NCBI GenBank assembly: GCA_028700625.1 | Contig: JAQVSI010000002.1 | Span: 3,276 to 67,275 of the forward strand | Direction of reading: 5' to 3' | DNA from: Candidatus Shapirobacteria bacterium | GTDB lineage: Bacteria; Patescibacteriota; Microgenomatia; UBA12405 | DNA: 64,000 bases | In this document: piece by piece, positions 30,388 through 58,026 of the stretch | Position numbering within the stretch: position 1 is the first letter of the stretch | Layout of the letters: the number at the start of each line of letters is the position of its first letter | Position numbers and translations under genes: made by a program | The notes under the pieces: generated by a model | What the model was told of the DNA's origin: nothing | Seen by the model: only the letters and a program-made list of their open reading frames with translations | Databases searched by the model: none

Positions 30388-30463
30388 GCCTGAGTAGCTC
30401 AGTTGGTTAGAGCACCAGTTTTGTAAACTGGTTGTCGTGAGTTCAAATCCCACCTCAGGCTCA
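30388..30463 (+). tRNA. tRNA-Thr (anticodon UGU)
   Basis: A cloverleaf can be drawn by hand: acceptor GCCTGAG/CTCAGGC, anticodon loop TTTGTAA, T-loop GTTCAAATC. Confidence 0.8.
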
Positions 30464-30486
30464 TTTTTTGATAAAATACCAAACGT

Positions 30487-30559
30487 GCCCAGATAGCTCA
30501 GTTGGTAGAGCATCCCCTTGGTAAGGGGAAGGTCTTGGATTCGAGTTCCAATCTGGGCT
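30487..30559 (+). tRNA. tRNA-Thr (anticodon GGU)
   Basis: Acceptor GCCCAGA/TCTGGGC and anticodon loop TTGGTAA. Confidence 0.8.
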
Positions 30560-30593
30560 CAAAGGAGGGCATGCCCTCCGAAGCTTTAGCGAA

Positions 30594-30679
30594 GGAGGGG
30601 TGCTCCGAATGGTAAGGAACTTGTTTTGAAAACAAGCGTCAGCAATGACATGCAGGTTCAACTCCTGTCCCCTCCGCCA
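30594..30679 (+). tRNA. tRNA-Ser (anticodon UGA), type II with a long variable arm
   Basis: Acceptor GGAGGGG/CCCCTCC, anticodon loop TTTGAAA, variable arm GTCAGCAATGACATG, and an encoded CCA. Confidence 0.75.
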
Positions 30680-33242: not shown

Positions 33243-33314
33243 CAGGCCCATGAGGATTCGAACCTCAAATGGAGATTTTGGAGATCCCAGTGATAACCAT
33301 TTCACTATGGGCCT
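33243..33314 (-). tRNA. tRNA-Trp (anticodon CCA)
   Basis: Minus-strand cloverleaf: acceptor AGGCCCA/TGGGCCT, D-stem GTGA/TCAC, anticodon loop CTCCAAA, T-arm TGAGG-TTCGAAT-CCTCA. Confidence 0.7.
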
Positions 33315-33343
33315 AAGTTTGAGATTTAATATTCTACCAAATT

Positions 33344-33754
33344 TTACTTAATTTGGCTTAAATCACCATTAATTATAATTGGACAAAAACCACCTATCTC
33401 ATCTTTTAAAATGCCTTCAGGAATCTGATTATATAAAAATATTTTTTTATTTAATCTAAAAGCATCATACATTTCCAAAAAAGTCGCTCCGCCAATATAA
33501 TTTTTGTAATCATCTTTATCAAAGTTTAAAACCAAAACCGCATCATTTTTACTAACAGAATCAACACTTTTTCTAAGCATTGTTGCTTTCCATTCAGCTC
33601 TTTCTTTTTCTCCTAAAGAACGAAAACTATCCTCAATATCAGTTTTGGGATATGTATTAGGAAAAGTTAATTTATGACCTAATTTTTCCAATTCTTTTTG
33701 AATAGGTGGAATCAAAGGATAAAATCTCTTACTACAAATTATAAAGATTTTCAT
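33344..33754 (-). CDS. hypothetical protein, possibly nucleoside 2-deoxyribosyltransferase-like
   Basis: Starts MKIFIICSKRF. The longer N-terminal extension in the ORF track overlaps tRNA-Ala and was discarded. Confidence 0.35.
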   Translation of the reverse strand: MKIFIICSKRFYPLIPPIQKELEKLGHKLTFPNTYPKTDIEDSFRSLGEKERAEWKATMLRKSVDSVSKNDAVLVLNFDKDDYKNYIGGATFLEMYDAFRLNKKIFLYNQIPEGILKDEIGGFCPIIINGDLSQIK

Positions 33755-33756
33755 AG

Positions 33757-33829
33757 TGGACCCAAGGGGACTCGAACCCCTGACCTTCCCCATGCCATGG
33801 GGACGCGCTACCAACGACGCTATGGGCCC
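33757..33829 (-). tRNA. tRNA-Ala (anticodon GGC)
   Basis: Acceptor GGGCCCA/TGGGTCC with the G3:U70 Ala identity pair, and anticodon loop ATGGCAT. Confidence 0.7.
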
Positions 33830-35907: not shown

Positions 35908-35936
35908 TTGACAAGGACCTATAATAGATATATAAT
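35908..35936 (+). promoter_or_regulatory. sigma70-like promoter: TTGACA, 17-bp spacer, TATAAT
   Basis: Perfect -35 at 35908-35913, a 17-bp spacer, and a perfect -10 at 35931-35936. Confidence 0.5.
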
Positions 35937-35943
35937 GATATTA

Positions 35944-36088
35944 GAATTAATAAAATAATTCGAACTTTTAAAAATAAACTTAGTTTAAAGACAAAGGAGA
36001 GATTTGGAGTGTGGCTCCTCTAGAGTTTCGCACCCCGCTTCTCCTTTGACTTTAAATATTAAAGCTCCGCTACTGCGGGGCTTTTTTA
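35944..36088 (+). ncRNA. candidate small RNA (~145 nt) running from the promoter to an intrinsic terminator
   Basis: A consensus promoter is followed by the hairpin GCTCCGC-TACT-GCGGGGC and a T6 run at 36064-36087. The only ORF across it starts at TTG and reads through the terminator. Confidence 0.3.
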
Positions 36089-36184: not shown

Positions 36185-36510
36185 ATATCCTATAACCTTG
36201 ACAAATAAGCACTTTTGCAGTACAATACATTCACAATAATCTTTATGATTATTATGGCGTTTAGTGAAAGCAGGCATTTGCGCTTACTTTCCCAAAACAC
36301 CGTTCTTTAAAAAATAGTTGTTATTTGGAAAGTCTATAAATTTTCTTTATATATCTTGTAATATGTACCATCTTGGGCTCAACTCTTGAACCTAAAATGG
36401 TACATATTAGTAAAAACAAGAGAAATAAGTGGCATTAAAACCGCTTTTTATAATATATAGAAGCATGGGAAACCAAAAGGTAGGCCCGCTTCGGAAAGGA
36501 GAAAACATGA

Positions 36511-37287
36511 ATGGCTACGAAACCGGCTAAAGAATGTCTTTATTGTCACTCAAAAACAAGAAACACAAAAGCCAATTTTTGTTGGAACTGCGGAAAACCG
36601 TACCAACAAAACATTAAACTAATGATAACCTATATAGGTTATCGGATACTAGGAGGTATCACTATGAAAGAAAGCAAAGCAAAATTACTAATAGACGAAG
36701 AAGAAATGGAAGAAGAAAGAAGAGAAAAAAAAATGAAAACATTAAAAATCATCCTTAGAATTTTTGGAGTAATCTTTTTGATTGCCCTCATTTTGCTTGC
36801 AGGTTGGTTCCTCAGAGGTTGTAAATCTATTAATGTAAATAGTCCAACCCCGACACCAACCATCGCTGTAACAGCCACCCCTACTCCAACACCTATTGCT
36901 GAAGGAAAAAGTGAACAAACAGACGCCAACACCGTTCGTTTATTCATCTTAAACCCAACAGCATCACCGCAAACACAAATCGGACATCCGTCAATTTATG
37001 TTGAAACACACGTTTCAGGAAATCCGATTAAATATGTTTTCGATATTCCACAAGAATACGTTGGCATCGTCGGTGGCTATAATGTTGACGGAGTAGACAA
37101 AGGTGTATACAAAGCTTTTGGCCCTGGTCATTACGAAATCGTCGTCACTGACGGATTTGGTCTTATTACTAATGACAATTGGGCTCAAGCCGAGTTCGAA
37201 TTCCGTATCCAACAGGCCATTGATTATAAGTGGGCACATGCTCATATTATTCCTGGCCCTCTTGTAGACCCAACAATCACCAAATAA
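36511..37287 (+). CDS. hypothetical protein: N-terminal zinc ribbon, TM helix, Pro/Thr linker, C-terminal domain
   Basis: CLYCHS...CWNCG, a TM helix, then TPTPTIAVTATPTPTP. Confidence 0.4.
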   Translation: MATKPAKECLYCHSKTRNTKANFCWNCGKPYQQNIKLMITYIGYRILGGITMKESKAKLLIDEEEMEEERREKKMKTLKIILRIFGVIFLIALILLAGWFLRGCKSINVNSPTPTPTIAVTATPTPTPIAEGKSEQTDANTVRLFILNPTASPQTQIGHPSIYVETHVSGNPIKYVFDIPQEYVGIVGGYNVDGVDKGVYKAFGPGHYEIVVTDGFGLITNDNWAQAEFEFRIQQAIDYKWAHAHIIPGPLVDPTITK

Positions 37288-37356
37288 CAACTATCCGGCT
37301 GGAAGAAAGCTCTTTATTTAGCATTTATTTGCTACTTAAAACTTTCTTACCAGCCC

Positions 37357-37405
37357 CGATCATCCGATGCGTGTCGGATCTGATGAGTCCAAAAGGACGA
37401 AATCG
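37357..37405 (+). ncRNA. hammerhead ribozyme, type III
   Basis: CGAUC|AUCCGA-UGCGUG-UCGGAU-CUGAUGA-GUCC-AAAA-GGAC-GAAA-UCG. The full conserved core is present with stem I of 6 bp, stem II of 4 bp and stem III of 4 bp. Confidence 0.7.
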
Positions 37406-37416
37406 AAAAGAATACT

Positions 37417-38286
37417 ATGAAAATTAAAAATCCCTTAGTCACCATCTACATGCCAGTTTTTAATGCTACCCCTTATCTTAGCCAGGCCATCGAAAGTATT
37501 TTAAACCAAAGTTTTTCCAATTTTGAATTTATTATTGTTGATGATGCTTCGACCGACGATTCTTGGAAAATAATTAAATCCTACGCTAAAAAAGATTCTC
37601 GTATAGTCACTATTAAAAATCAAATTAATTTAGGAGTCAGTTTAACTTCAAATGTCGCTATTTCTAAGGCTCGAGGTAAATTTTTAGCCCGTATGGATGC
37701 CGATGATATTTCTTTTACTAATCGTATTGAAAAGCAAATTAAATTCTTAAACAAACATTCTAAAGTCGTTGCCGTTGGTGGTCAATGTGTCGTTATTGAT
37801 GAAAATAACAACATTATTGGTAATAAAAATTTTCCTTCTCAAAATAAAAAATTAAAAGATATGATTTTTTGGGCTGTTCCCATTCAACAACCATCAATGA
37901 TGATTAATTTAAAAAAATTGCCTAAAAATTTTATTTGGTACACTCCAAACCAATCTTCTGCTGAAGAAATTAACCTTATGTTTAGATTTATGCTCTATGG
38001 ACAAATTGCCAATCTCGAAGACAATTTACTTTTTTATCGTCATTTAGACAATAGTCTTTCTCATAAAAATCCAAAAGCTACTTTTAAATTAACTTTAAAA
38101 AGTCGTTTTAATGCCTTAAAACTTGGCTTTAAACCTAGTATTAAAGCTATTATATTAAATTTAATGCAAATGACAGTCATTGCCCTAATCCCCAATAATT
38201 TAATTTATGATATTTGGTATCGAATTCGTGGTATTAAAAAACCAAACGGTCTTACTGTTGGGACTTTTGCCAAAGCTCAAGTATAA
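37417..38286 (+). CDS. GT2-family glycosyltransferase
   Basis: YMPVFNATPYL...IIVDDASTDDS...ARMDADD. Confidence 0.75.
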   Translation: MKIKNPLVTIYMPVFNATPYLSQAIESILNQSFSNFEFIIVDDASTDDSWKIIKSYAKKDSRIVTIKNQINLGVSLTSNVAISKARGKFLARMDADDISFTNRIEKQIKFLNKHSKVVAVGGQCVVIDENNNIIGNKNFPSQNKKLKDMIFWAVPIQQPSMMINLKKLPKNFIWYTPNQSSAEEINLMFRFMLYGQIANLEDNLLFYRHLDNSLSHKNPKATFKLTLKSRFNALKLGFKPSIKAIILNLMQMTVIALIPNNLIYDIWYRIRGIKKPNGLTVGTFAKAQV

Positions 38287-38294
38287 TTTAAATA

Positions 38295-40928
38295 ATGGCT
38301 TTAATAGATAAATTAAAAGCACACTTCGACAAAATAATTTTAGCTTTAGTTCTATTAGTCTTAATTTGTCAAAATTTTACTCCTCATACTTGGCTTATTG
38401 GTTGGGACAACCTTCTTCCCGAACTAAATATCTGGTTAAATTTAAAAAGATCATTTCTGGCGGTCTGGCAGGAATATCAAGGCCTTGGTTTGGTTGGTGG
38501 CATGGGTCATGCTACTGAATTAATCAGACAACTAATAATTCTTCCCTTTACTTTAGTACTTCCTCACAATTTAATCCGCTATTTTTGGCAATTCTTAATG
38601 TTAATTTTAGGCACTTTTAGTCTCAATATTGGTCTAAAAAAAATATTCCACTTGTCAAAAACAACCAGTCTTTTAACTTCCCTTTTTTATCTATTAAATT
38701 TTGGCACTGTTCAATATTTTTGGGTTCCTTTTGAACCATTTTCTACATTTTGGGGATTTTTTCCAGCTCTTTTTTTTCTTCTTTGGAACTACTTAAAAAA
38801 TCCCAATCGTAAAAATCTAATTTACCTTATTTTAATTAACTTTCTCGCCATTCCTAGTTTTTATGTCCAAACTATTTTTATAGTTTATTTAATTTGTCTT
38901 TTTATAATTCTTTTCTCTCATTTAATTTTCAATCTTAAAAAAATTCCAGTAAAACTCTATTCTTCTCTCCTCTTAATTGTCTTTCTTTTAAATTCTTTTT
39001 GGCTTCTCCCATTTTCCTATTATTTAAAAAATGATCTAAACAACACCACTCAAGCCTATGGTAATTTAATGGCCACTCAAGAAACTTTTGATCGTAATCA
39101 AAATAGAGGAACCATCTCTGATTTTTTACTTCTCCGTAACTACTATTTTGATTTTCCAAAAGACAAAAGCACTCTTATGGCTCCTTGGACATCTTTTTTT
39201 TACAACCAATACAATCTAATTTGTGGTTATATTGTTTCCCTGTTTGTCATTATCGGTCTAATCTTTCTTATTTCAAGAATTAAACAAAAATCACCAATTA
39301 AATTATCTATTTTATTAATCTTTCTATTATCTTCGATTGCCTTACTTTCAGACACTCCTATTTTTTCTCAAATAAACTATTTAATTCACCAGATTCCTAT
39401 TATTAACCAAGTTTTTAGATCTCCATGGACAAAATTCTTAGTTCCTACTGCTTTTACTTTCTCTGTTCTTTTAGCTTTTGGACTTGAATTTATCTTCAGG
39501 CTTCTTAAAAAAATCAAATATAATCCAATTTTTTCCAAATCTCTAGTTAGTCTTATTTTTATTTTTGCCCTTTTAAAATTTAGTTTTCCTGTTTTTAAAG
39601 GTCAATTTTTCTCTCCTCAAATAAAACAAAACATTCCACAAGAATATTTTGAACTTTTCACTTTTTTCAACAAAATCTCCCCCACTGCTAGGATTATGAA
39701 TTTACCTCAAGGATCTTTTTGGGGTTGGACCAATTACCGCTGGAATGTCAATGGCTCCGGTTTTATTTGGTATGGTTTAAAACAACCAATCCTCGACCGA
39801 TCTTTTGATGTTTGGAACCTTAAAAATGAAAATTATTATTGGGAATTAACTTCTGCCCTCCAACAAAAAAATCCACAAGCTCTAAATAATATTATTGATA
39901 AATATTCGGTTGAATATATTATTTTTGATAAAAATATTTATTATCCAGATGAAAAGATTTTTGGAAAGCTAGCAACTTCAGGAACAGATATTTTAAATCA
40001 AATTAAAAATTTAAAATTAATTAAAAACATTGGTTCTATATCTATTTACCAAAATCAAAACCCAACTAAAATTTATACTACTAATAATCTCAACAGTAGT
40101 CTTCCAATTGCTCATTTTGATCCTAATTTTAAACCTCAATTTTTACCTTCTTCCGATTCTATTATCTACCCTTTCGATCATAGTATTTTAAAAGAATCTC
40201 AAAATGCAAAAACCAGCACAAATAACGAAATTTATTTTCATCTCCAAAATAAAAATTCTCATAATCTCTTAGCTTTTAATTTTTCTAATCTAAAATTTGA
40301 TCAAGATTATCTTCTTAAAATAGAAACCAAAAATACCAACGGTCAAAGTCCAATTATTTCTGTTTTTGATAATAACAATCATTATTATTTTTTCAAAAAT
40401 CAACTTAAAAAATCAAAAGAATGGCAAATTACCTGGCTTTTAATTCCTAAAATGGAAAATTTTTCTTTTGACACTGGACTAACAGTTTTATTTGACAACC
40501 CAAGTTTTAATAAAACTGATTCTATAAATGAAGTTAAAAATCCTGAAATTTATCCATATCAAAACAATATTCCTCTTATAGACAACTATCAAGCACCTAC
40601 TAACAATTATTTAGATTCAAAATCAAGCATATTTTTTTACAAAACCAAATTAAACCAGAGCAATAATCAGTATTTAGTCTTACCTCAATCATTTCATAAA
40701 GGTTGGAGTGCTTTTTATCTCGATGGTTTAAAACCAGTTTTTCTAAAAGATCATGTTCTCTATAACAATTGGGCCAACGCCTGGCAAATTCCCTCAGATC
40801 TGACATCTGATAGTCTGAAATCTGAGATCTATATTGCTTTCTGGCCTCAAATCTTCGAGTTTTTCGGTTTCGCCCTTCTAATTTCTACCTTCATTTTGAT
40901 ATTTAAAAACAAAAAAGAAATCAAATAA
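38295..40928 (+). CDS. large polytopic membrane protein (YfhO or GT-C-like), likely glycan-related
   Basis: 877 aa with more than 12 N-terminal TM helices, directly downstream of the GT2 gene. It carries a heptamer repeat at 40797-40830. Confidence 0.45.
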   Translation: MALIDKLKAHFDKIILALVLLVLICQNFTPHTWLIGWDNLLPELNIWLNLKRSFLAVWQEYQGLGLVGGMGHATELIRQLIILPFTLVLPHNLIRYFWQFLMLILGTFSLNIGLKKIFHLSKTTSLLTSLFYLLNFGTVQYFWVPFEPFSTFWGFFPALFFLLWNYLKNPNRKNLIYLILINFLAIPSFYVQTIFIVYLICLFIILFSHLIFNLKKIPVKLYSSLLLIVFLLNSFWLLPFSYYLKNDLNNTTQAYGNLMATQETFDRNQNRGTISDFLLLRNYYFDFPKDKSTLMAPWTSFFYNQYNLICGYIVSLFVIIGLIFLISRIKQKSPIKLSILLIFLLSSIALLSDTPIFSQINYLIHQIPIINQVFRSPWTKFLVPTAFTFSVLLAFGLEFIFRLLKKIKYNPIFSKSLVSLIFIFALLKFSFPVFKGQFFSPQIKQNIPQEYFELFTFFNKISPTARIMNLPQGSFWGWTNYRWNVNGSGFIWYGLKQPILDRSFDVWNLKNENYYWELTSALQQKNPQALNNIIDKYSVEYIIFDKNIYYPDEKIFGKLATSGTDILNQIKNLKLIKNIGSISIYQNQNPTKIYTTNNLNSSLPIAHFDPNFKPQFLPSSDSIIYPFDHSILKESQNAKTSTNNEIYFHLQNKNSHNLLAFNFSNLKFDQDYLLKIETKNTNGQSPIISVFDNNNHYYFFKNQLKKSKEWQITWLLIPKMENFSFDTGLTVLFDNPSFNKTDSINEVKNPEIYPYQNNIPLIDNYQAPTNNYLDSKSSIFFYKTKLNQSNNQYLVLPQSFHKGWSAFYLDGLKPVFLKDHVLYNNWANAWQIPSDLTSDSLKSEIYIAFWPQIFEFFGFALLISTFILIFKNKKEIK
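40797..40830. repeat. ATCTGAN heptamer repeats inside the large membrane protein gene
   Basis: AGATCTGACATCTGATAGTCTGAAATCTGAGATCT. Confidence 0.5.
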
Positions 40929-45642: not shown

Positions 45643-45723
45643 ATTACTCTTGCTCGAAAGTTTTAGAGATCCGACTTTACGGTTGCGGCACAGTCTAGGA
45701 ATTACACCTAGTTCCCTATTAAA

Positions 45724-46176
45724 TTATTTTTTAATTTGTTCGACTGATTTTATAAATAAATAATCTGAAAGTCTATTGAAATATTTTAGTATATCTTTAT
45801 TAATTTTTTGCTGTTTATTCAAAGTAACAATCCTTCTTTCTGCTCTTCTGCAAACAGTCCTTGCCCAATTTAATTCTAAAGATTCTTTTTCTTTAAATTT
45901 TACAAACTTAGTTAATTTATAATCTTTGGAACTTATTTCTTTCTCCATTTTTTCGATTGGAAATTGGAAATTGGAAGTTGGAAATTTAATTCCACACCCC
46001 AATTCTCCCATTATTCTCCCCAAATCATCAATAATTTTTTTATTAACTTTAATTAACTCTAAAACCGCTTGTAATTCATCAATGGTTCCAACAGCCTCAA
46101 GTAATGGATTGTCTTTATCCACTATTTTTCCTAAAAAATAACTTTTACCTTCATCACCTTTTTTTGTTGTTATCAT
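45724..46176 (-). CDS. PduO-type ATP:cob(I)alamin adenosyltransferase
   Basis: TKKGDEGKS...EAVGTIDELQ. Adjacent to the B12-dependent RNR, and carries an in-frame heptamer repeat at 45956-45987. Confidence 0.55.
   Translation of the reverse strand: MITTKKGDEGKSYFLGKIVDKDNPLLEAVGTIDELQAVLELIKVNKKIIDDLGRIMGELGCGIKFPTSNFQFPIEKMEKEISSKDYKLTKFVKFKEKESLELNWARTVCRRAERRIVTLNKQQKINKDILKYFNRLSDYLFIKSVEQIKK
45956..45987. repeat. TTGGAAA heptamer repeats inside the PduO-like gene
   Basis: ATTGGAAATTGGAAATTGGAAGTTGGAAATTT. Confidence 0.5.
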
Positions 46177-57798: not shown

Positions 57799-58026
57799 GT
57801 TTTGTGTTTACCCGCCCGAGGCGTTTTTGAACTCATGTTCAACAACATCACCTCGGGCCTTTTAATAACTAATCTATTTACAAAGCAAAATCTAATTGAT
57901 ACAATAAACCCAATCTAACCGAAGACAGTAGGCATTCAAATAAGTCCCACCGAGGTCAAAACAATTTATTTGTCTTGATTAATACCCTCGCTTCTTCGGC
58001 GAGGTTTTTTTATTTATTAAACCAAT
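57799..58026 (+). promoter_or_regulatory. rplJ (L10) leader with attenuator-like hairpin
   Basis: CCTCGCTTCTTCGGCGAGG plus a T7 run at 57986-58011, preceded by an alternative pairing GCCCGAGG...CCTCGGGC. Confidence 0.4.

What the first reader, a model, noticed from the sequence alone, without database searches (positions are those of the whole stretch)
37357..37405. Complete type III hammerhead ribozyme motif 12 nt upstream of a glycosyltransferase gene
Seen in the sequence: 5'-CGAUC^AUCCGA-UGCGUG-UCGGAU-CUGAUGA-GUCC-AAAA-GGAC-GAAA-UCG-3'. Every invariant core nucleotide of the hammerhead consensus is present: CUGAUGA, GAAA, and the A15.1:U16.1 pair closing stem III. The cleavage site is GAUC^A, predicted after C37361. 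Stem I is a perfect 6-bp hairpin with a hexaloop, stem II is 4 bp with an AAAA loop, and stem III is the 4-bp pair CGAU/AUCG. The motif directly abuts a 59-nt nested hairpin (37297-37355) that follows the stop codon of the upstream zinc-ribbon gene. It ends 12 nt before the ATG of the GT2 gene at 37417. Established knowledge: this is the minimal hammerhead consensus, and bacterial hammerheads are known but uncommon. Inference: it may cut a co-transcript between the two genes, which would leave a 5'-OH end starting AUCCGAUG in the glycosyltransferase mRNA leader.
Basis: partly seen in the sequence, partly recalled or inferred. Interest (0 to 1): 0.85.

Follow-up and report, generated by a model that had tools for sequence, protein, structure and literature searches.

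The report
Conserved hammerhead ribozyme upstream of glycosyltransferase
A real, evolutionarily conserved self-cutting RNA (a type III hammerhead ribozyme) sits between a surface-protein gene and a glycosyltransferase operon in the chromosome of a Candidatus Shapirobacteria (CPR) bacterium. That gives a rare case of a bacterial hammerhead tied to one particular host gene rather than to a phage.

Summary
Rfam's Hammerhead_3 model misses it (17.8 bits against a threshold of 48.5). The comparative evidence is nevertheless strong.

- **Conservation:** orthologous GT2 loci from 19 distinct Patescibacteria/Microgenomates contigs carry a type III hammerhead at the same place.
- **Core:** it is invariant apart from a few single-position variants (N7, 15.1:16.1, 10.1/11.1) in five relatives.
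- **Covariation:** 14 of 16 stem pairs show compensatory changes, 93% of cells are paired, and 0 of 500 shuffles match this.
- **Independent model:** a covariance model built only from phage and metagenome hammerheads hits the window site at 67.8 bits (E about 2e-19). The next best hit in the window scores 12.4 bits.

The ribozyme always follows a co-oriented membrane/surface-protein gene and a strong hairpin that lacks a U-tract. In 17 of 19 GT2-linked loci the cleavage site lies 44-68 nt before the GT2 start codon.

**Most likely role (inferred):** constitutive self-cleavage of a co-transcript. This would leave a hairpin-capped upstream mRNA and a GT2/877-aa mRNA with a 5'-OH end carrying a stem I hairpin.

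The ribozyme class is known and widespread, with 78 viral contigs and at least 120 metagenome contigs matching. What appears to be new is the CPR host and the fixed, non-phage gene association. Cleavage itself is untested.

The parts
37357..37405 (+). Complete type III hammerhead ribozyme (49 nt)
   Evidence: Sequence read. It is the only descriptor hit in the window. Model R1 scores it 74 bits. The independent model R2 scores it 67.8 bits, E=2.3e-19, with filters off.
37357..37360 (+). Stem III 5' strand, CGAU (U37360 = U16.1)
   Evidence: Pairs with 37402-37405. All stem III pairs covary among orthologous loci.
37361..37362 (+). Predicted scissile bond: C17 (37361) ^ A1.1 (37362)
   Evidence: Position follows from the hammerhead consensus. 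In 20 aligned relatives H17 is C, U or A and never G. Cleavage was not tested.
37362..37379 (+). Stem I: 6 bp (AUCCGA/UCGGAU) with hexaloop UGCGUG
   Evidence: This helix is 100% paired across the 20 sequences, and 6 of 6 pairs show compensatory change. The loop fits the class consensus U-G-N-R-U-R seen in 70 phage and metagenome hammerheads.
37380..37386 (+). Core C3 U4 G5 A6 U7 G8 A9
   Evidence: Invariant in 20 of 20 relatives, except N7=C in L004.
37387..37398 (+). Stem II: GUCC/GGAC with AAAA loop
   Evidence: Relatives have GUUC/GAAC, GCCC/GGGC and GGC/GCC, with loops of various sizes.
37399..37405 (+). G12 A13 A14, then the stem III 3' strand A15.1-UCG
   Evidence: GAA is invariant in 20 of 20 relatives.
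37297..37355 (+). Strong nested hairpin without a U-tract, ending 1 nt before the ribozyme
   Evidence: A strong hairpin without a T-run lies upstream of the ribozyme in nearly every related locus. Near-identical copies occur in L005 and L010. It is unique in the window. The terminator scan does not flag it.
37406..37416 (+). A-rich 11-nt spacer (AAAAGAAUACU) between the ribozyme and the GT2 start codon. It has no clear Shine-Dalgarno sequence.
36511..37287 (+). Upstream gene: 258-aa protein with an N-terminal CxxC..CxxC zinc-ribbon-like motif, one TM segment, a Thr/Pro-rich linker and a C-terminal domain
   Evidence: A co-oriented gene of this or a related family precedes all 16 ribozymes for which upstream sequence is available.
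37417..38286 (+). GT2 family glycosyltransferase (289 aa) with a C-terminal TM segment
   Evidence: Pfam PF00535, E=2.9e-34. A 100% identical protein is annotated from Candidatus Shapirobacteria.
38295..40928 (+). 877-aa polytopic membrane protein, a conserved partner of the GT2 gene
   Evidence: Synteny in L001-L017. TM profile. No family or PDB hit.
36198..36226 (+). Candidate promoter for the co-transcript (TTGACA-17-TACAAT, 11 of 12 matches)
   Evidence: This is a consensus match only.

Best explanation
Window 37357-37405 encodes a genuine, functional type III hammerhead ribozyme in the chromosome of a Candidatus Shapirobacteria (Patescibacteria/CPR) bacterium. It is transcribed as part of an RNA that runs from the upstream surface-protein gene (36511-37287) into the GT2/877-aa gene pair.

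The ribozyme folds co-transcriptionally and cuts itself after C37361. The likely aid to folding is a loop 1/loop 2 tertiary contact, as in other compact natural type III hammerheads. Cleavage gives two products:
- an upstream mRNA whose 3' end (2',3'-cyclic phosphate) lies 6 nt after a very stable hairpin;
- a downstream GT2 mRNA that begins with a 5'-OH inside the stem I hairpin and carries the ribozyme body as a 55-nt leader.

The cut therefore separates the two cistrons physically. This would let their stability and translation differ, acting as a natural counterpart of a ribozyme insulator.

Shown here: the motif, its conservation and covariation, its fixed position, and the gene context. 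Inferred: transcription through the site, cleavage, and the consequence for expression.
For: 1. **Motif rarity.** There is a perfect consensus core, and the motif is expected about 0.0007 times per window or less.

2. **Orthologous conservation.** A scan with a GT2 alignment returned loci in which a type III hammerhead lies directly upstream of the GT2 orthologue. This holds for 13 of 17 species-representative loci with at least 57% GT2 identity, plus L017 at 45%. It also holds in L238, L278, L279 and L281.

3. **Covariation.** On 20 sequences, 93.3% of cells are paired and 14 of 16 pairs show compensatory change. The covariation score is 0.626, against 0.160 for shuffles (0 of 500 reach it) and at most 0.111 for slid controls. 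RNAalifold returns the three-stem fold by itself. The core is invariant and H17 is never G.

4. **Independent model.** Model R2, built from 70 phage and metagenome hammerheads, scores the window site at 67.8 bits with the next hit at 12.4 bits. It finds 19 sites in the GT2 loci and none in the hammerhead-less loci.

5. **Context.**
- All genes are co-oriented, with conserved synteny NTP-transferase / surface protein / hammerhead / GT2 / 877-aa.
- No promoter-like site lies between 36761 and 37417.
- A hairpin without a U-tract precedes the ribozyme in nearly all loci.
- The distance from cleavage site to ATG is 44-68 nt in 17 of 19 GT2-linked loci.

6. **Precedent.**
- Phage hammerheads flank genes and cleave polycistronic RNAs in vitro.
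- One halovirus hammerhead lies 13 nt before a start codon, with a mapped 5' end near the cleavage site (PMC3088659).
- 55 of 71 viral type III hammerheads with the same stem II end 16-40 nt before an ORF start.
Against: - There is no experimental cleavage or transcript-end data.
- Rfam RF00008 does not reach its threshold, either here or in any of 15 related loci.
- The nearest-neighbour fold of the isolated 49-mer does not form stem III and is only marginally better than shuffles.
- The element is dispensable. Close orthologues (L002, L282, L283 at 83% GT2 identity, and L004, L014, L015) lack it. At least L002/L282 and L004 have a hairpin plus T-run instead.
- In L012 a terminator-like hairpin with a T-run lies between the ribozyme and the GT2 ATG. 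In L003:1650-1698 and L004:663-712 the ribozyme is not near any downstream start. 5'-end definition of GT2 therefore cannot be its only role.
- Predicted start-site accessibility does not change on cleavage for the window sequence (0.71 versus 0.71).
- The training set for R2 was retrieved with a 22-base pattern taken from this motif. Only stem I, loop 1, stem III and the geometry are truly independent.
Confidence: 0.8

Rival explanations
1. The cut mainly serves the upstream gene. Hairpin plus hammerhead would be a 3'-end-forming module, a terminator surrogate that leaves a hairpin-protected 3' end. Proximity to the GT2 start would be secondary.
For: - In 16 of the 17 loci examined, the ribozyme follows a co-oriented surface-protein gene by 69-170 nt; L001 has no upstream sequence because of the contig end. 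A strong hairpin lies in between.
- Two copies (L003:1650-1698, L004:663-712) keep this upstream arrangement but are followed by long AT-rich, promoter-containing spacers rather than a start codon.
- In L012 a terminator-like hairpin follows the ribozyme.
- Hammerhead-less orthologues carry a hairpin plus T-run at the equivalent place.
Against: 19 of 21 copies sit within -1 to 15 nt of the GT2 start (58 nt in L012). That distance is much tighter than the stop-to-ribozyme distance. A 3'-end-forming role and a 5'-end-defining role follow from the same cut and are not exclusive.
Confidence: 0.3
2. The ribozyme is a translational switch. Stem III, and in some loci stem II, masks the GT2 initiation region. 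Cleavage and release of the short 5' fragment, or regulated cleavage, then turns GT2 translation on.
For: - In L007, L008, L011 and L018 the A of the ATG is the last base of the stem III 3' strand. In L009 the ATG abuts the stem, and in L006 it is 1 nt away.
- In those loci AAAAGGA of loop 2/stem II lies 9 nt before the ATG, like a Shine-Dalgarno sequence.
- Predicted unpaired probability around the ATG rises after cleavage in L007 (0.26 to 0.40), L008 (0.46 to 0.65), L018 (0.26 to 0.60) and L013 (0.36 to 0.53).
- The genome is largely SD-less and looks rich in leaderless mRNAs, so an internal cistron may need special help.
- Self-cleavage in 5' UTRs has been reported to enable translation in eukaryotic RNA viruses (bioRxiv 10.1101/2024.05.16.594327).
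Against: - The window sequence and its close relatives show no change in accessibility (0.71 versus 0.71; L278 goes from 0.80 to 0.66), and they have 11-15 nt of free A-rich spacer.
- There is no aptamer-like domain in the 49-nt ribozyme.
- The nearest-neighbour model is a poor guide to hammerhead junctions.
Confidence: 0.15
3. The ribozyme is a selfish or phage-derived remnant that persists in this intergenic region without a host function.
For: - The same compact type III class is abundant in viral contigs (78 IMG/VR contigs).
- The literature links prokaryotic hammerheads to phages (PMC3088659, PMC6155905).
- Presence is patchy among close orthologues.
- The hairpin plus hammerhead of the window is about 90% identical to that of L005, although the GT2 proteins are only 63% identical. 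This could mean transfer of the cassette.
Against: - The position is fixed relative to the same two host genes across GT2 identities from 45% to 89%.
- Stems evolve by compensatory change in situ.
- The six neighbouring proteins scanned against Pfam returned no phage or integrase families. The neighbours are NTP-transferases, GT2, SHMT and tRNAs.
- There is only one copy in 64 kb.
Confidence: 0.08
4. The hammerhead consensus occurs here by chance, or the conserved hairpins act at the DNA or protein-binding level with no catalysis.
For: Rfam's curated model does not call it. The 49-mer's fold z-score is weak.
Against: - Chance expectation is about 0.0007 per window or less.
- The catalytic-core positions (C3-A9 and G12-A14) stay invariant apart from N7, which is free in the consensus, while all three stems covary.
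- The class-specific model gives E of about 1e-19.
Confidence: 0.02

Closest known systems
Compact type III hammerheads of phage and prophage intergenic regions (Perreault et al. 2011, PMC3088659; de la Pena & Garcia-Robles 2010, as cited in PMC6155905)
   Same: - Same core and same architecture: 6-bp stem I with a U-G-N-R-U-R hexaloop, and a 4-bp stem II GUCC/GGAC with an NAAA loop.
- DNA-encoded and located between co-oriented genes, usually just upstream of an ORF start.
- Proposed to process polycistronic RNA.
   Different: - Here the element is in a bacterial chromosome, and the neighbouring proteins scanned returned no phage families.
- It sits in a CPR lineage.
[quoted passage not shown]
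Type III hammerheads of plant virus satellite RNAs (sTRSV, sLTSV)
   Same: The core is identical, and stem II is nearly identical (CUGAUGAGUCC-NNNN-GGACGAAAC). Stem I has 6 bp and a loop beginning UG. The pattern search also picked up contigs of 322-457 nt, a size typical of satellite RNAs, although their identity was not checked. The comparison with sTRSV is from my own knowledge.
   Different: The satellite ribozymes process rolling-circle multimers of circular RNA replicons. This one is a single copy inside a chromosomal mRNA.
HHphage of haloviruses HF1/HF2
   Same: It lies 13 nt upstream of the start codon of the first gene of a polycistronic transcript, and a mapped 5' end lies near the cleavage site (PMC3088659). 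That is analogous to the 11-nt spacing here.
   Different: It belongs to an archaeal virus, is a variant hammerhead that needs high Mg2+/salt, and has no conserved upstream hairpin module.
RiboJ, a synthetic ribozyme insulator (Lou et al. 2012; recalled from memory, not read here)
   Same: It is a type III sTRSV-derived hammerhead placed in a 5' UTR. It cuts off whatever is upstream and leaves a defined 5'-OH leader containing the ribozyme body.
   Different: It is engineered and has an added downstream hairpin to expose the RBS. The element here is natural, and its effect on expression is unmeasured.
glmS ribozyme
   Same: It is a self-cleaving RNA in a bacterial 5' UTR whose 5'-OH product determines mRNA fate.
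   Different: It is an unrelated fold and is metabolite-dependent. Its cleavage destabilises the mRNA through RNase J1 (from my own knowledge). Here the 5' end is buried in stem I, which would be expected to protect it.

Membership tests
Hammerhead ribozyme | Conserved catalytic core C3-U4-G5-A6-N7-G8-A9 and G12-A13-A14 | tested here: met
   CUGAUGA is at 37380-37386 and GAA at 37399-37401. The core is invariant in 20 of 20 related sequences, with N7=C once.
Hammerhead ribozyme | A15.1:U16.1 pair closing stem III, and a non-G nucleotide at the cleavage position 17 | tested here: met
   A37402:U37360 form the pair and C37361 is position 17. Eighteen of 20 relatives have A:U, and two (L005, L003:1650-1698) have U:A. 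H17 is C, U or A and never G.
Hammerhead ribozyme | Three helices around the core, supported by covariation | tested here: met
   93.3% of cells are paired, 14 of 16 pairs show compensatory change, 0 of 500 shuffles reach this, and slid controls are low. RNAalifold gives the same fold.
Hammerhead ribozyme, type III topology | Stems I and II closed by loops, with the 5' and 3' ends in stem III | tested here: met
   All 21 related copies have the same topology.
Hammerhead ribozyme (natural, fast-cleaving) | Tertiary contact between loop 1 and loop 2 (or a pseudoknot) | tested here: inconclusive
   Loop 1 (UGCGUG) fits the conserved U-G-N-R-U-R pattern and loop 2 fits NAAA, as seen in 70 class members.
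Hammerhead ribozyme | Site-specific Mg2+-assisted self-cleavage giving 2',3'-cyclic phosphate and 5'-OH ends | not testable with these tools
   This needs in vitro transcription or cleavage assays, or end-specific RNA-seq.
Rfam RF00008 Hammerhead_3 | Score at or above the curated gathering threshold (48.5 bits) | tested here: not met
   No hit at the gathering threshold. The best score is 17.8 bits, E=0.23 on 221 nt, with a mis-registered stem III. None of 15 related loci is called either. A class-specific model gives 67.8 bits.
Phage/prophage-associated bacterial hammerheads | Location in a prophage, near integrase or phage genes | tested here: not met
   The neighbours are two NTP-transferases, a surface protein, GT2, an 877-aa membrane protein, SHMT and tRNAs. 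Only about 9 kb around the site was annotated.
Intrinsic (Rho-independent) terminator, for the upstream hairpin 37297-37355 | G+C-rich hairpin followed directly by a U-tract | tested here: not met
   The hairpin is followed by CCCGAUCAUCC. It is not flagged by the terminator scan. Hammerhead-less orthologues do have a T-run.
Allosteric/riboswitch-type ribozyme (glmS-like control) | A ligand-binding domain coupled to the catalytic core | tested here: not met
   The 49-nt ribozyme has no extra domain. Only L017 carries a 115-nt structured insertion in stem II, of unknown meaning.

The most novel reading that the evidence does not exclude
CPR genomes appear to translate mostly leaderless or SD-less mRNAs. 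In these genomes the hairpin-plus-hammerhead module may be an alternative to 'terminator plus new promoter' for expressing an internal cistron. Under this reading, self-cleavage would be required to make the GT2/877-aa message translatable and stable, by creating a nearby, hairpin-protected 5'-OH end and freeing the stem III strand that reaches the start codon. At the same time it would cap the upstream surface-protein mRNA with a hairpin. If correct, this would be the first defined physiological role for a chromosomal, non-phage bacterial hammerhead. Natural 'knock-out' orthologues that carry a terminator instead would serve as comparators.
Probability: 0.25. Interest if true: 0.75.

Novelty: new member of a known kind. 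Interest (0 to 1): 0.55.

Why it matters
The biological role of prokaryotic hammerheads is still described as an open question (PMC6155905), and most known examples sit in phage or prophage DNA next to changing genes (PMC3088659). This element differs in several useful ways.

- The same ribozyme sits at the same place in a conserved, apparently housekeeping cell-envelope glycosylation cluster, across many Patescibacteria.
- It is paired with a fixed upstream hairpin.
- Sister lineages have lost it and carry a hairpin with a T-run (terminator-like) at that position.

That is a natural comparative system for asking what a bacterial hammerhead does to operon expression.

The case also shows that standard Rfam annotation misses this whole compact class. 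I found no paper in the searchable library that links hammerheads to CPR bacteria.

Tried and rejected
- **Rfam at gathering and at E-value thresholds:** there was no usable hit. I treat this as a false negative of the model, because class-specific models succeed.
- **Folding energy of the 49-mer:** the z-score is weak, and the predicted structure replaces stem III, so it is not used as evidence.
- **Start-codon unmasking by cleavage, tested with partition-function accessibilities:** there is a modest effect in the L007/L008/L018/L013 group and none for the window sequence. It is kept only as a minority rival.
- **'Terminator plus promoter replaces hammerhead' in hammerhead-less loci:** hairpin plus T-run is seen in L002/L282 and L004. 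No convincing promoter was found between it and the ATG, so the swap is only half supported.
- **Hairpin 37297-37355 as a repeated or mobile element:** it is unique in the window and present only in L005 and L010 among 277 loci, so this idea is rejected.
- **Other hammerhead-like descriptor hits (L020, L027, L028, L037, L060, L065, L077):** all lie inside coding sequence, most in the GT2 'DADD' motif region, and are not called by the models. They are false positives.
- **L050:6468-6514 (16 bits, E=0.11):** this is noise.
- **Family assignment of the 877-aa protein and the 258-aa protein (Pfam, NCBIfam, PDB):** nothing significant was found.
- **The look-up of encoding contigs with the window's own GT2 protein:** the protein is not on record.

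Full report
**1. The observation**

Every position of the hammerhead consensus is present:
- C3-A9 and G12-A14;
- the A15.1:U16.1 pair;
- C at position 17;
- a 6-bp stem I with a hexaloop, a 4-bp stem II with a tetraloop, and a 4-bp stem III.

The 59-nt nested hairpin at 37297-37355 is real. So are the upstream ORF (36511-37287), which has an N-terminal CxxC...CxxC motif, and the GT2 gene starting at 37417.

A home-made type III descriptor finds only this site in the 64-kb window. In first-order Markov randomised windows a relaxed descriptor fires 0.067 times per window. At the observed stem lengths it fires 0.0007 times, and with Watson-Crick pairs only it fired 0 times in 1500 windows.

Folding energy is not persuasive on its own. 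The isolated 49-mer forms stems I and II, but the nearest-neighbour model replaces stem III, and the z-score is -1.75.

**2.

Rfam 15 at gathering thresholds reports tRNAs, an L10 leader and an AdoCbl-II riboswitch in the window, but no hammerhead. In E-value mode on 221 nt, RF00008 gives 17.8 bits (threshold 48.5), E=0.23, with a mis-registered stem III. Rfam also calls none of the hammerheads in 15 related loci. This compact class is simply below that model's reach.

**3. Comparative evidence**

The GT2 protein is 100% identical to a protein annotated from a Candidatus Shapirobacteria MAG. Scanning one genome per GTDB species with an alignment of GT2 homologues returned orthologous loci from Patescibacteria/Microgenomates MAGs. 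Several of these carry wrong organism labels.

A type III hammerhead sits directly upstream of the GT2 start in 13 of the 17 loci with at least 57% GT2 identity. It also does so in L017 (45% identity), where stem II carries a 115-nt structured insertion. Closer relatives fetched by exact-protein look-up add more cases:

| Locus | GT2 identity | Finding |
|---|---|---|
| L278 | 89% | Same ribozyme, one loop-1 change |
| L279/L280 | 86% | Ribozyme with a different stem I and stem III |
| L281 | 84% | Ribozyme with a different stem I and stem III |
| L282/L283 | 83% | No ribozyme, as in L002 |

A covariance model built from ten of these sequences found six further, non-training copies at 18-47 bits, and only one copy in the window.

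On the 20-sequence alignment, 93.3% of cells are paired and 14 of 16 pairs show compensatory changes. The covariation score is 0.626, against 0.160 for shuffles (0 of 500 reach it) and at most 0.111 when partners are slid. RNAalifold predicts the same three-stem fold by itself. The core is invariant, and position 17 is never G.

**4. An independent model**

Of these, 188 parse as type III. Most have a 6-bp stem I and a hexaloop of consensus U-G-N-R-U-R; 130 distinct sequences have exactly this 6+6+6 layout.

The score is 67.8 bits, E about 2e-19, with filters off, and the next hit in the window scores 12.4 bits. The same model finds 19 sites in the GT2 loci and none in the hammerhead-less loci.

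One caveat applies. The training set was retrieved with a pattern taken from this motif, so the core and stem II match by construction. Stem I, loop 1, stem III and the spacing are the independent part.

**5. Context**

Synteny is conserved: NTP-transferase(s), a fast-evolving membrane-anchored or lipoprotein-like surface protein, the hammerhead, GT2, an 877-aa polytopic membrane protein, then SHMT on the other strand. The neighbouring proteins scanned returned no phage families.

The gene upstream of the ribozyme is always co-oriented. Its stop codon lies 69-170 nt before the ribozyme, and that gap holds a strong hairpin that is not followed by a T-run.

No promoter-like site lies on the + strand between 36761 and 37417. 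A good candidate (TTGACA-17-TACAAT) lies at 36198-36226, upstream of the surface-protein gene.

The distance from the predicted cleavage site to the GT2 ATG is 44-68 nt in 17 of 19 GT2-linked copies. In other words, the ribozyme ends between -1 and 15 nt from the start codon. In L007, L008, L011 and L018 the A of the ATG is the last base of stem III.

There are three exceptions:
- L012 has a terminator-like hairpin with a T-run between the ribozyme and the ATG.
- L003:1650-1698 and L004:663-712 keep the upstream gene-hairpin-ribozyme arrangement but are followed by long AT-rich, promoter-bearing spacers.

Hammerhead-less orthologues show a hairpin followed by a T-run at the equivalent place (L002/L282: T8; L004: flagged by the scan).

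**6. How it most likely works**

*Shown:* a hammerhead under purifying selection for its core and for pairing in all three stems, at a fixed place between two co-oriented genes.

*Inferred:*
- It is transcribed from the upstream promoter.
- It folds and cleaves after C37361.
- It leaves an upstream mRNA that ends just after a stable hairpin.
- It leaves a downstream mRNA that starts with a 5'-OH nucleotide already paired in stem I.

Such ends would be expected to resist 3' and 5' exonucleases respectively. The simplest reading is an intercistronic processing site that uncouples the amounts of the surface protein and of the two membrane glycosylation enzymes.

Precedents are of three kinds.
- Prophage hammerheads cleave polycistronic RNAs in vitro (PMC3088659).
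- The halovirus hammerhead lies 13 nt before a start codon, with a mapped 5' end at the cleavage site (PMC3088659).
- In my viral sample, 55 of 71 ribozymes of this class end 16-40 nt before an ORF.

The synthetic RiboJ insulator works the same way (from my own knowledge).

I give 0.8 to 'real self-cleaving hammerhead processing this co-transcript'. Which consequence matters most is open. The candidates are upstream 3'-end formation, downstream 5'-end definition, and translational unmasking. The accessibility calculation supports unmasking only in the subgroup whose stem III reaches the ATG, not in the window sequence.

A further point may bear on the role. Only 7 of 52 large ORFs in the window have a Shine-Dalgarno-like motif, and many have a TAnAAT box 6-7 nt before the ATG. 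This includes the 877-aa gene. The genome may therefore rely on leaderless mRNAs, which would make expression of an internal cistron without its own promoter a special problem.

**7. Comparison with what is known, and novelty**

The ribozyme is a member of the hammerhead class, type III, and of a compact subclass that is abundant in phage and metagenome data. All sequence and structure criteria are met; catalysis is untested; the Rfam threshold is not met.

It differs from described bacterial hammerheads in two respects:
- its host lineage is CPR/Patescibacteria;
- it has a constant association with one orthologous chromosomal operon, rather than with prophages and changing genes.

Full-text searches found no paper combining hammerheads with CPR, Patescibacteria or Microgenomates. 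I rate it a new member of a known kind, of moderate interest. The motif itself is no surprise to a specialist. Its value is that it offers a clean natural system, with hammerhead-less sister loci, for the unresolved question of what bacterial hammerheads are for (PMC6155905).

Noticed in passing
window 35995-36050 (+), with promoter-like site 35908-35936 and terminator 36061-36084; also L278:66-140, L279:32-180, L004:943-1100: A 56-nt hairpin element (AAAGGAGAGAUUUGGAGUGUGGCUCCUCUAGAGUUUCGCACCCCGCUUCUCCUUUG) lies downstream of a 12/12 consensus promoter and upstream of an intrinsic terminator. Its 31-nt core is 100% identical in L278, L279/L280 (two tandem copies) and L004 (two tandem copies), although the neighbouring proteins are only 65-89% identical. 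The fold z-score is -5.97, and no Rfam family matches. It is a candidate small RNA or cis element upstream of the surface-protein gene.
   Followed up: partly
window, whole (52 ORFs of at least 150 aa): Only 7 of 52 large ORFs have a Shine-Dalgarno-like motif. Many have a TAnAAT box 6-7 nt before the ATG (for example TATAAT 7 nt before the 877-aa gene at 38295). This suggests widespread leaderless mRNAs in this Shapirobacteria genome.
   Followed up: partly
L005:2932-2982 and L003:1650-1698: These are natural hammerhead variants in which the conserved A15.1:U16.1 pair is flipped to U15.1:A16.1 (GAAU...; the cleavage triplet ends AAC). All else is intact and stem III differs between the two. 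Their activity is unknown.
   Followed up: no
L006:2933-2981 and L012:1490-1538: In these hammerheads the G10.1:C11.1 pair next to the core is replaced by a U/U mismatch (CUGAUGA-UUCC-AAAA-GGAU-GAAA). L012 also has a terminator-like hairpin plus T-run between the ribozyme and the GT2 ATG.
   Followed up: no
L017:2469-2623: This hammerhead, upstream of a 45%-identical GT2 gene, carries a roughly 115-nt structured insertion in stem II (MFE -55.1 kcal/mol, z = -2.72). It was missed by both covariance models.
   Followed up: partly
L006-L009, L011, L012, L018 and L004:630-660 (the 25-35 nt just upstream of the ribozyme): A purine-rich spacer (for example GGAAAGAAAGAAGAAAGAGAUU) recurs between the upstream G+C-rich hairpin and the hammerhead. 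It would form the 3' tail of the upstream cleavage product. Its role is unknown.
   Followed up: no
window 37297-37405 versus L005:2880-2982: The hairpin plus hammerhead is about 90% identical in DNA between the window and L005, although their GT2 proteins are only 63% identical. Closer GT2 relatives (L001, L016, L279, L281) have differently sequenced stems. Possible explanations are cassette transfer, gene conversion or strong sequence constraint.
   Followed up: partly
window 38295-40928 (+): This 877-aa protein has about 8-10 N-terminal TM segments, a large extracytoplasmic domain and a C-terminal TM. It is conserved next to the GT2 gene but has no Pfam, NCBIfam or PDB sequence match. The architecture recalls a GT2 / large GT-C-type glycosyltransferase pair (for example CsbB/YfhO), and the Thr/Pro-rich upstream protein would be a conceivable substrate. 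This is speculation.
   Followed up: partly
window 45656-45731 (-), 57901-58019 (+), 30388-30676 (+), 33243-33829 (-): An AdoCbl-II riboswitch (44.6 bits), a ribosomal protein L10 leader (52 bits) and five tRNA genes were called by Rfam at gathering thresholds.
   Followed up: no
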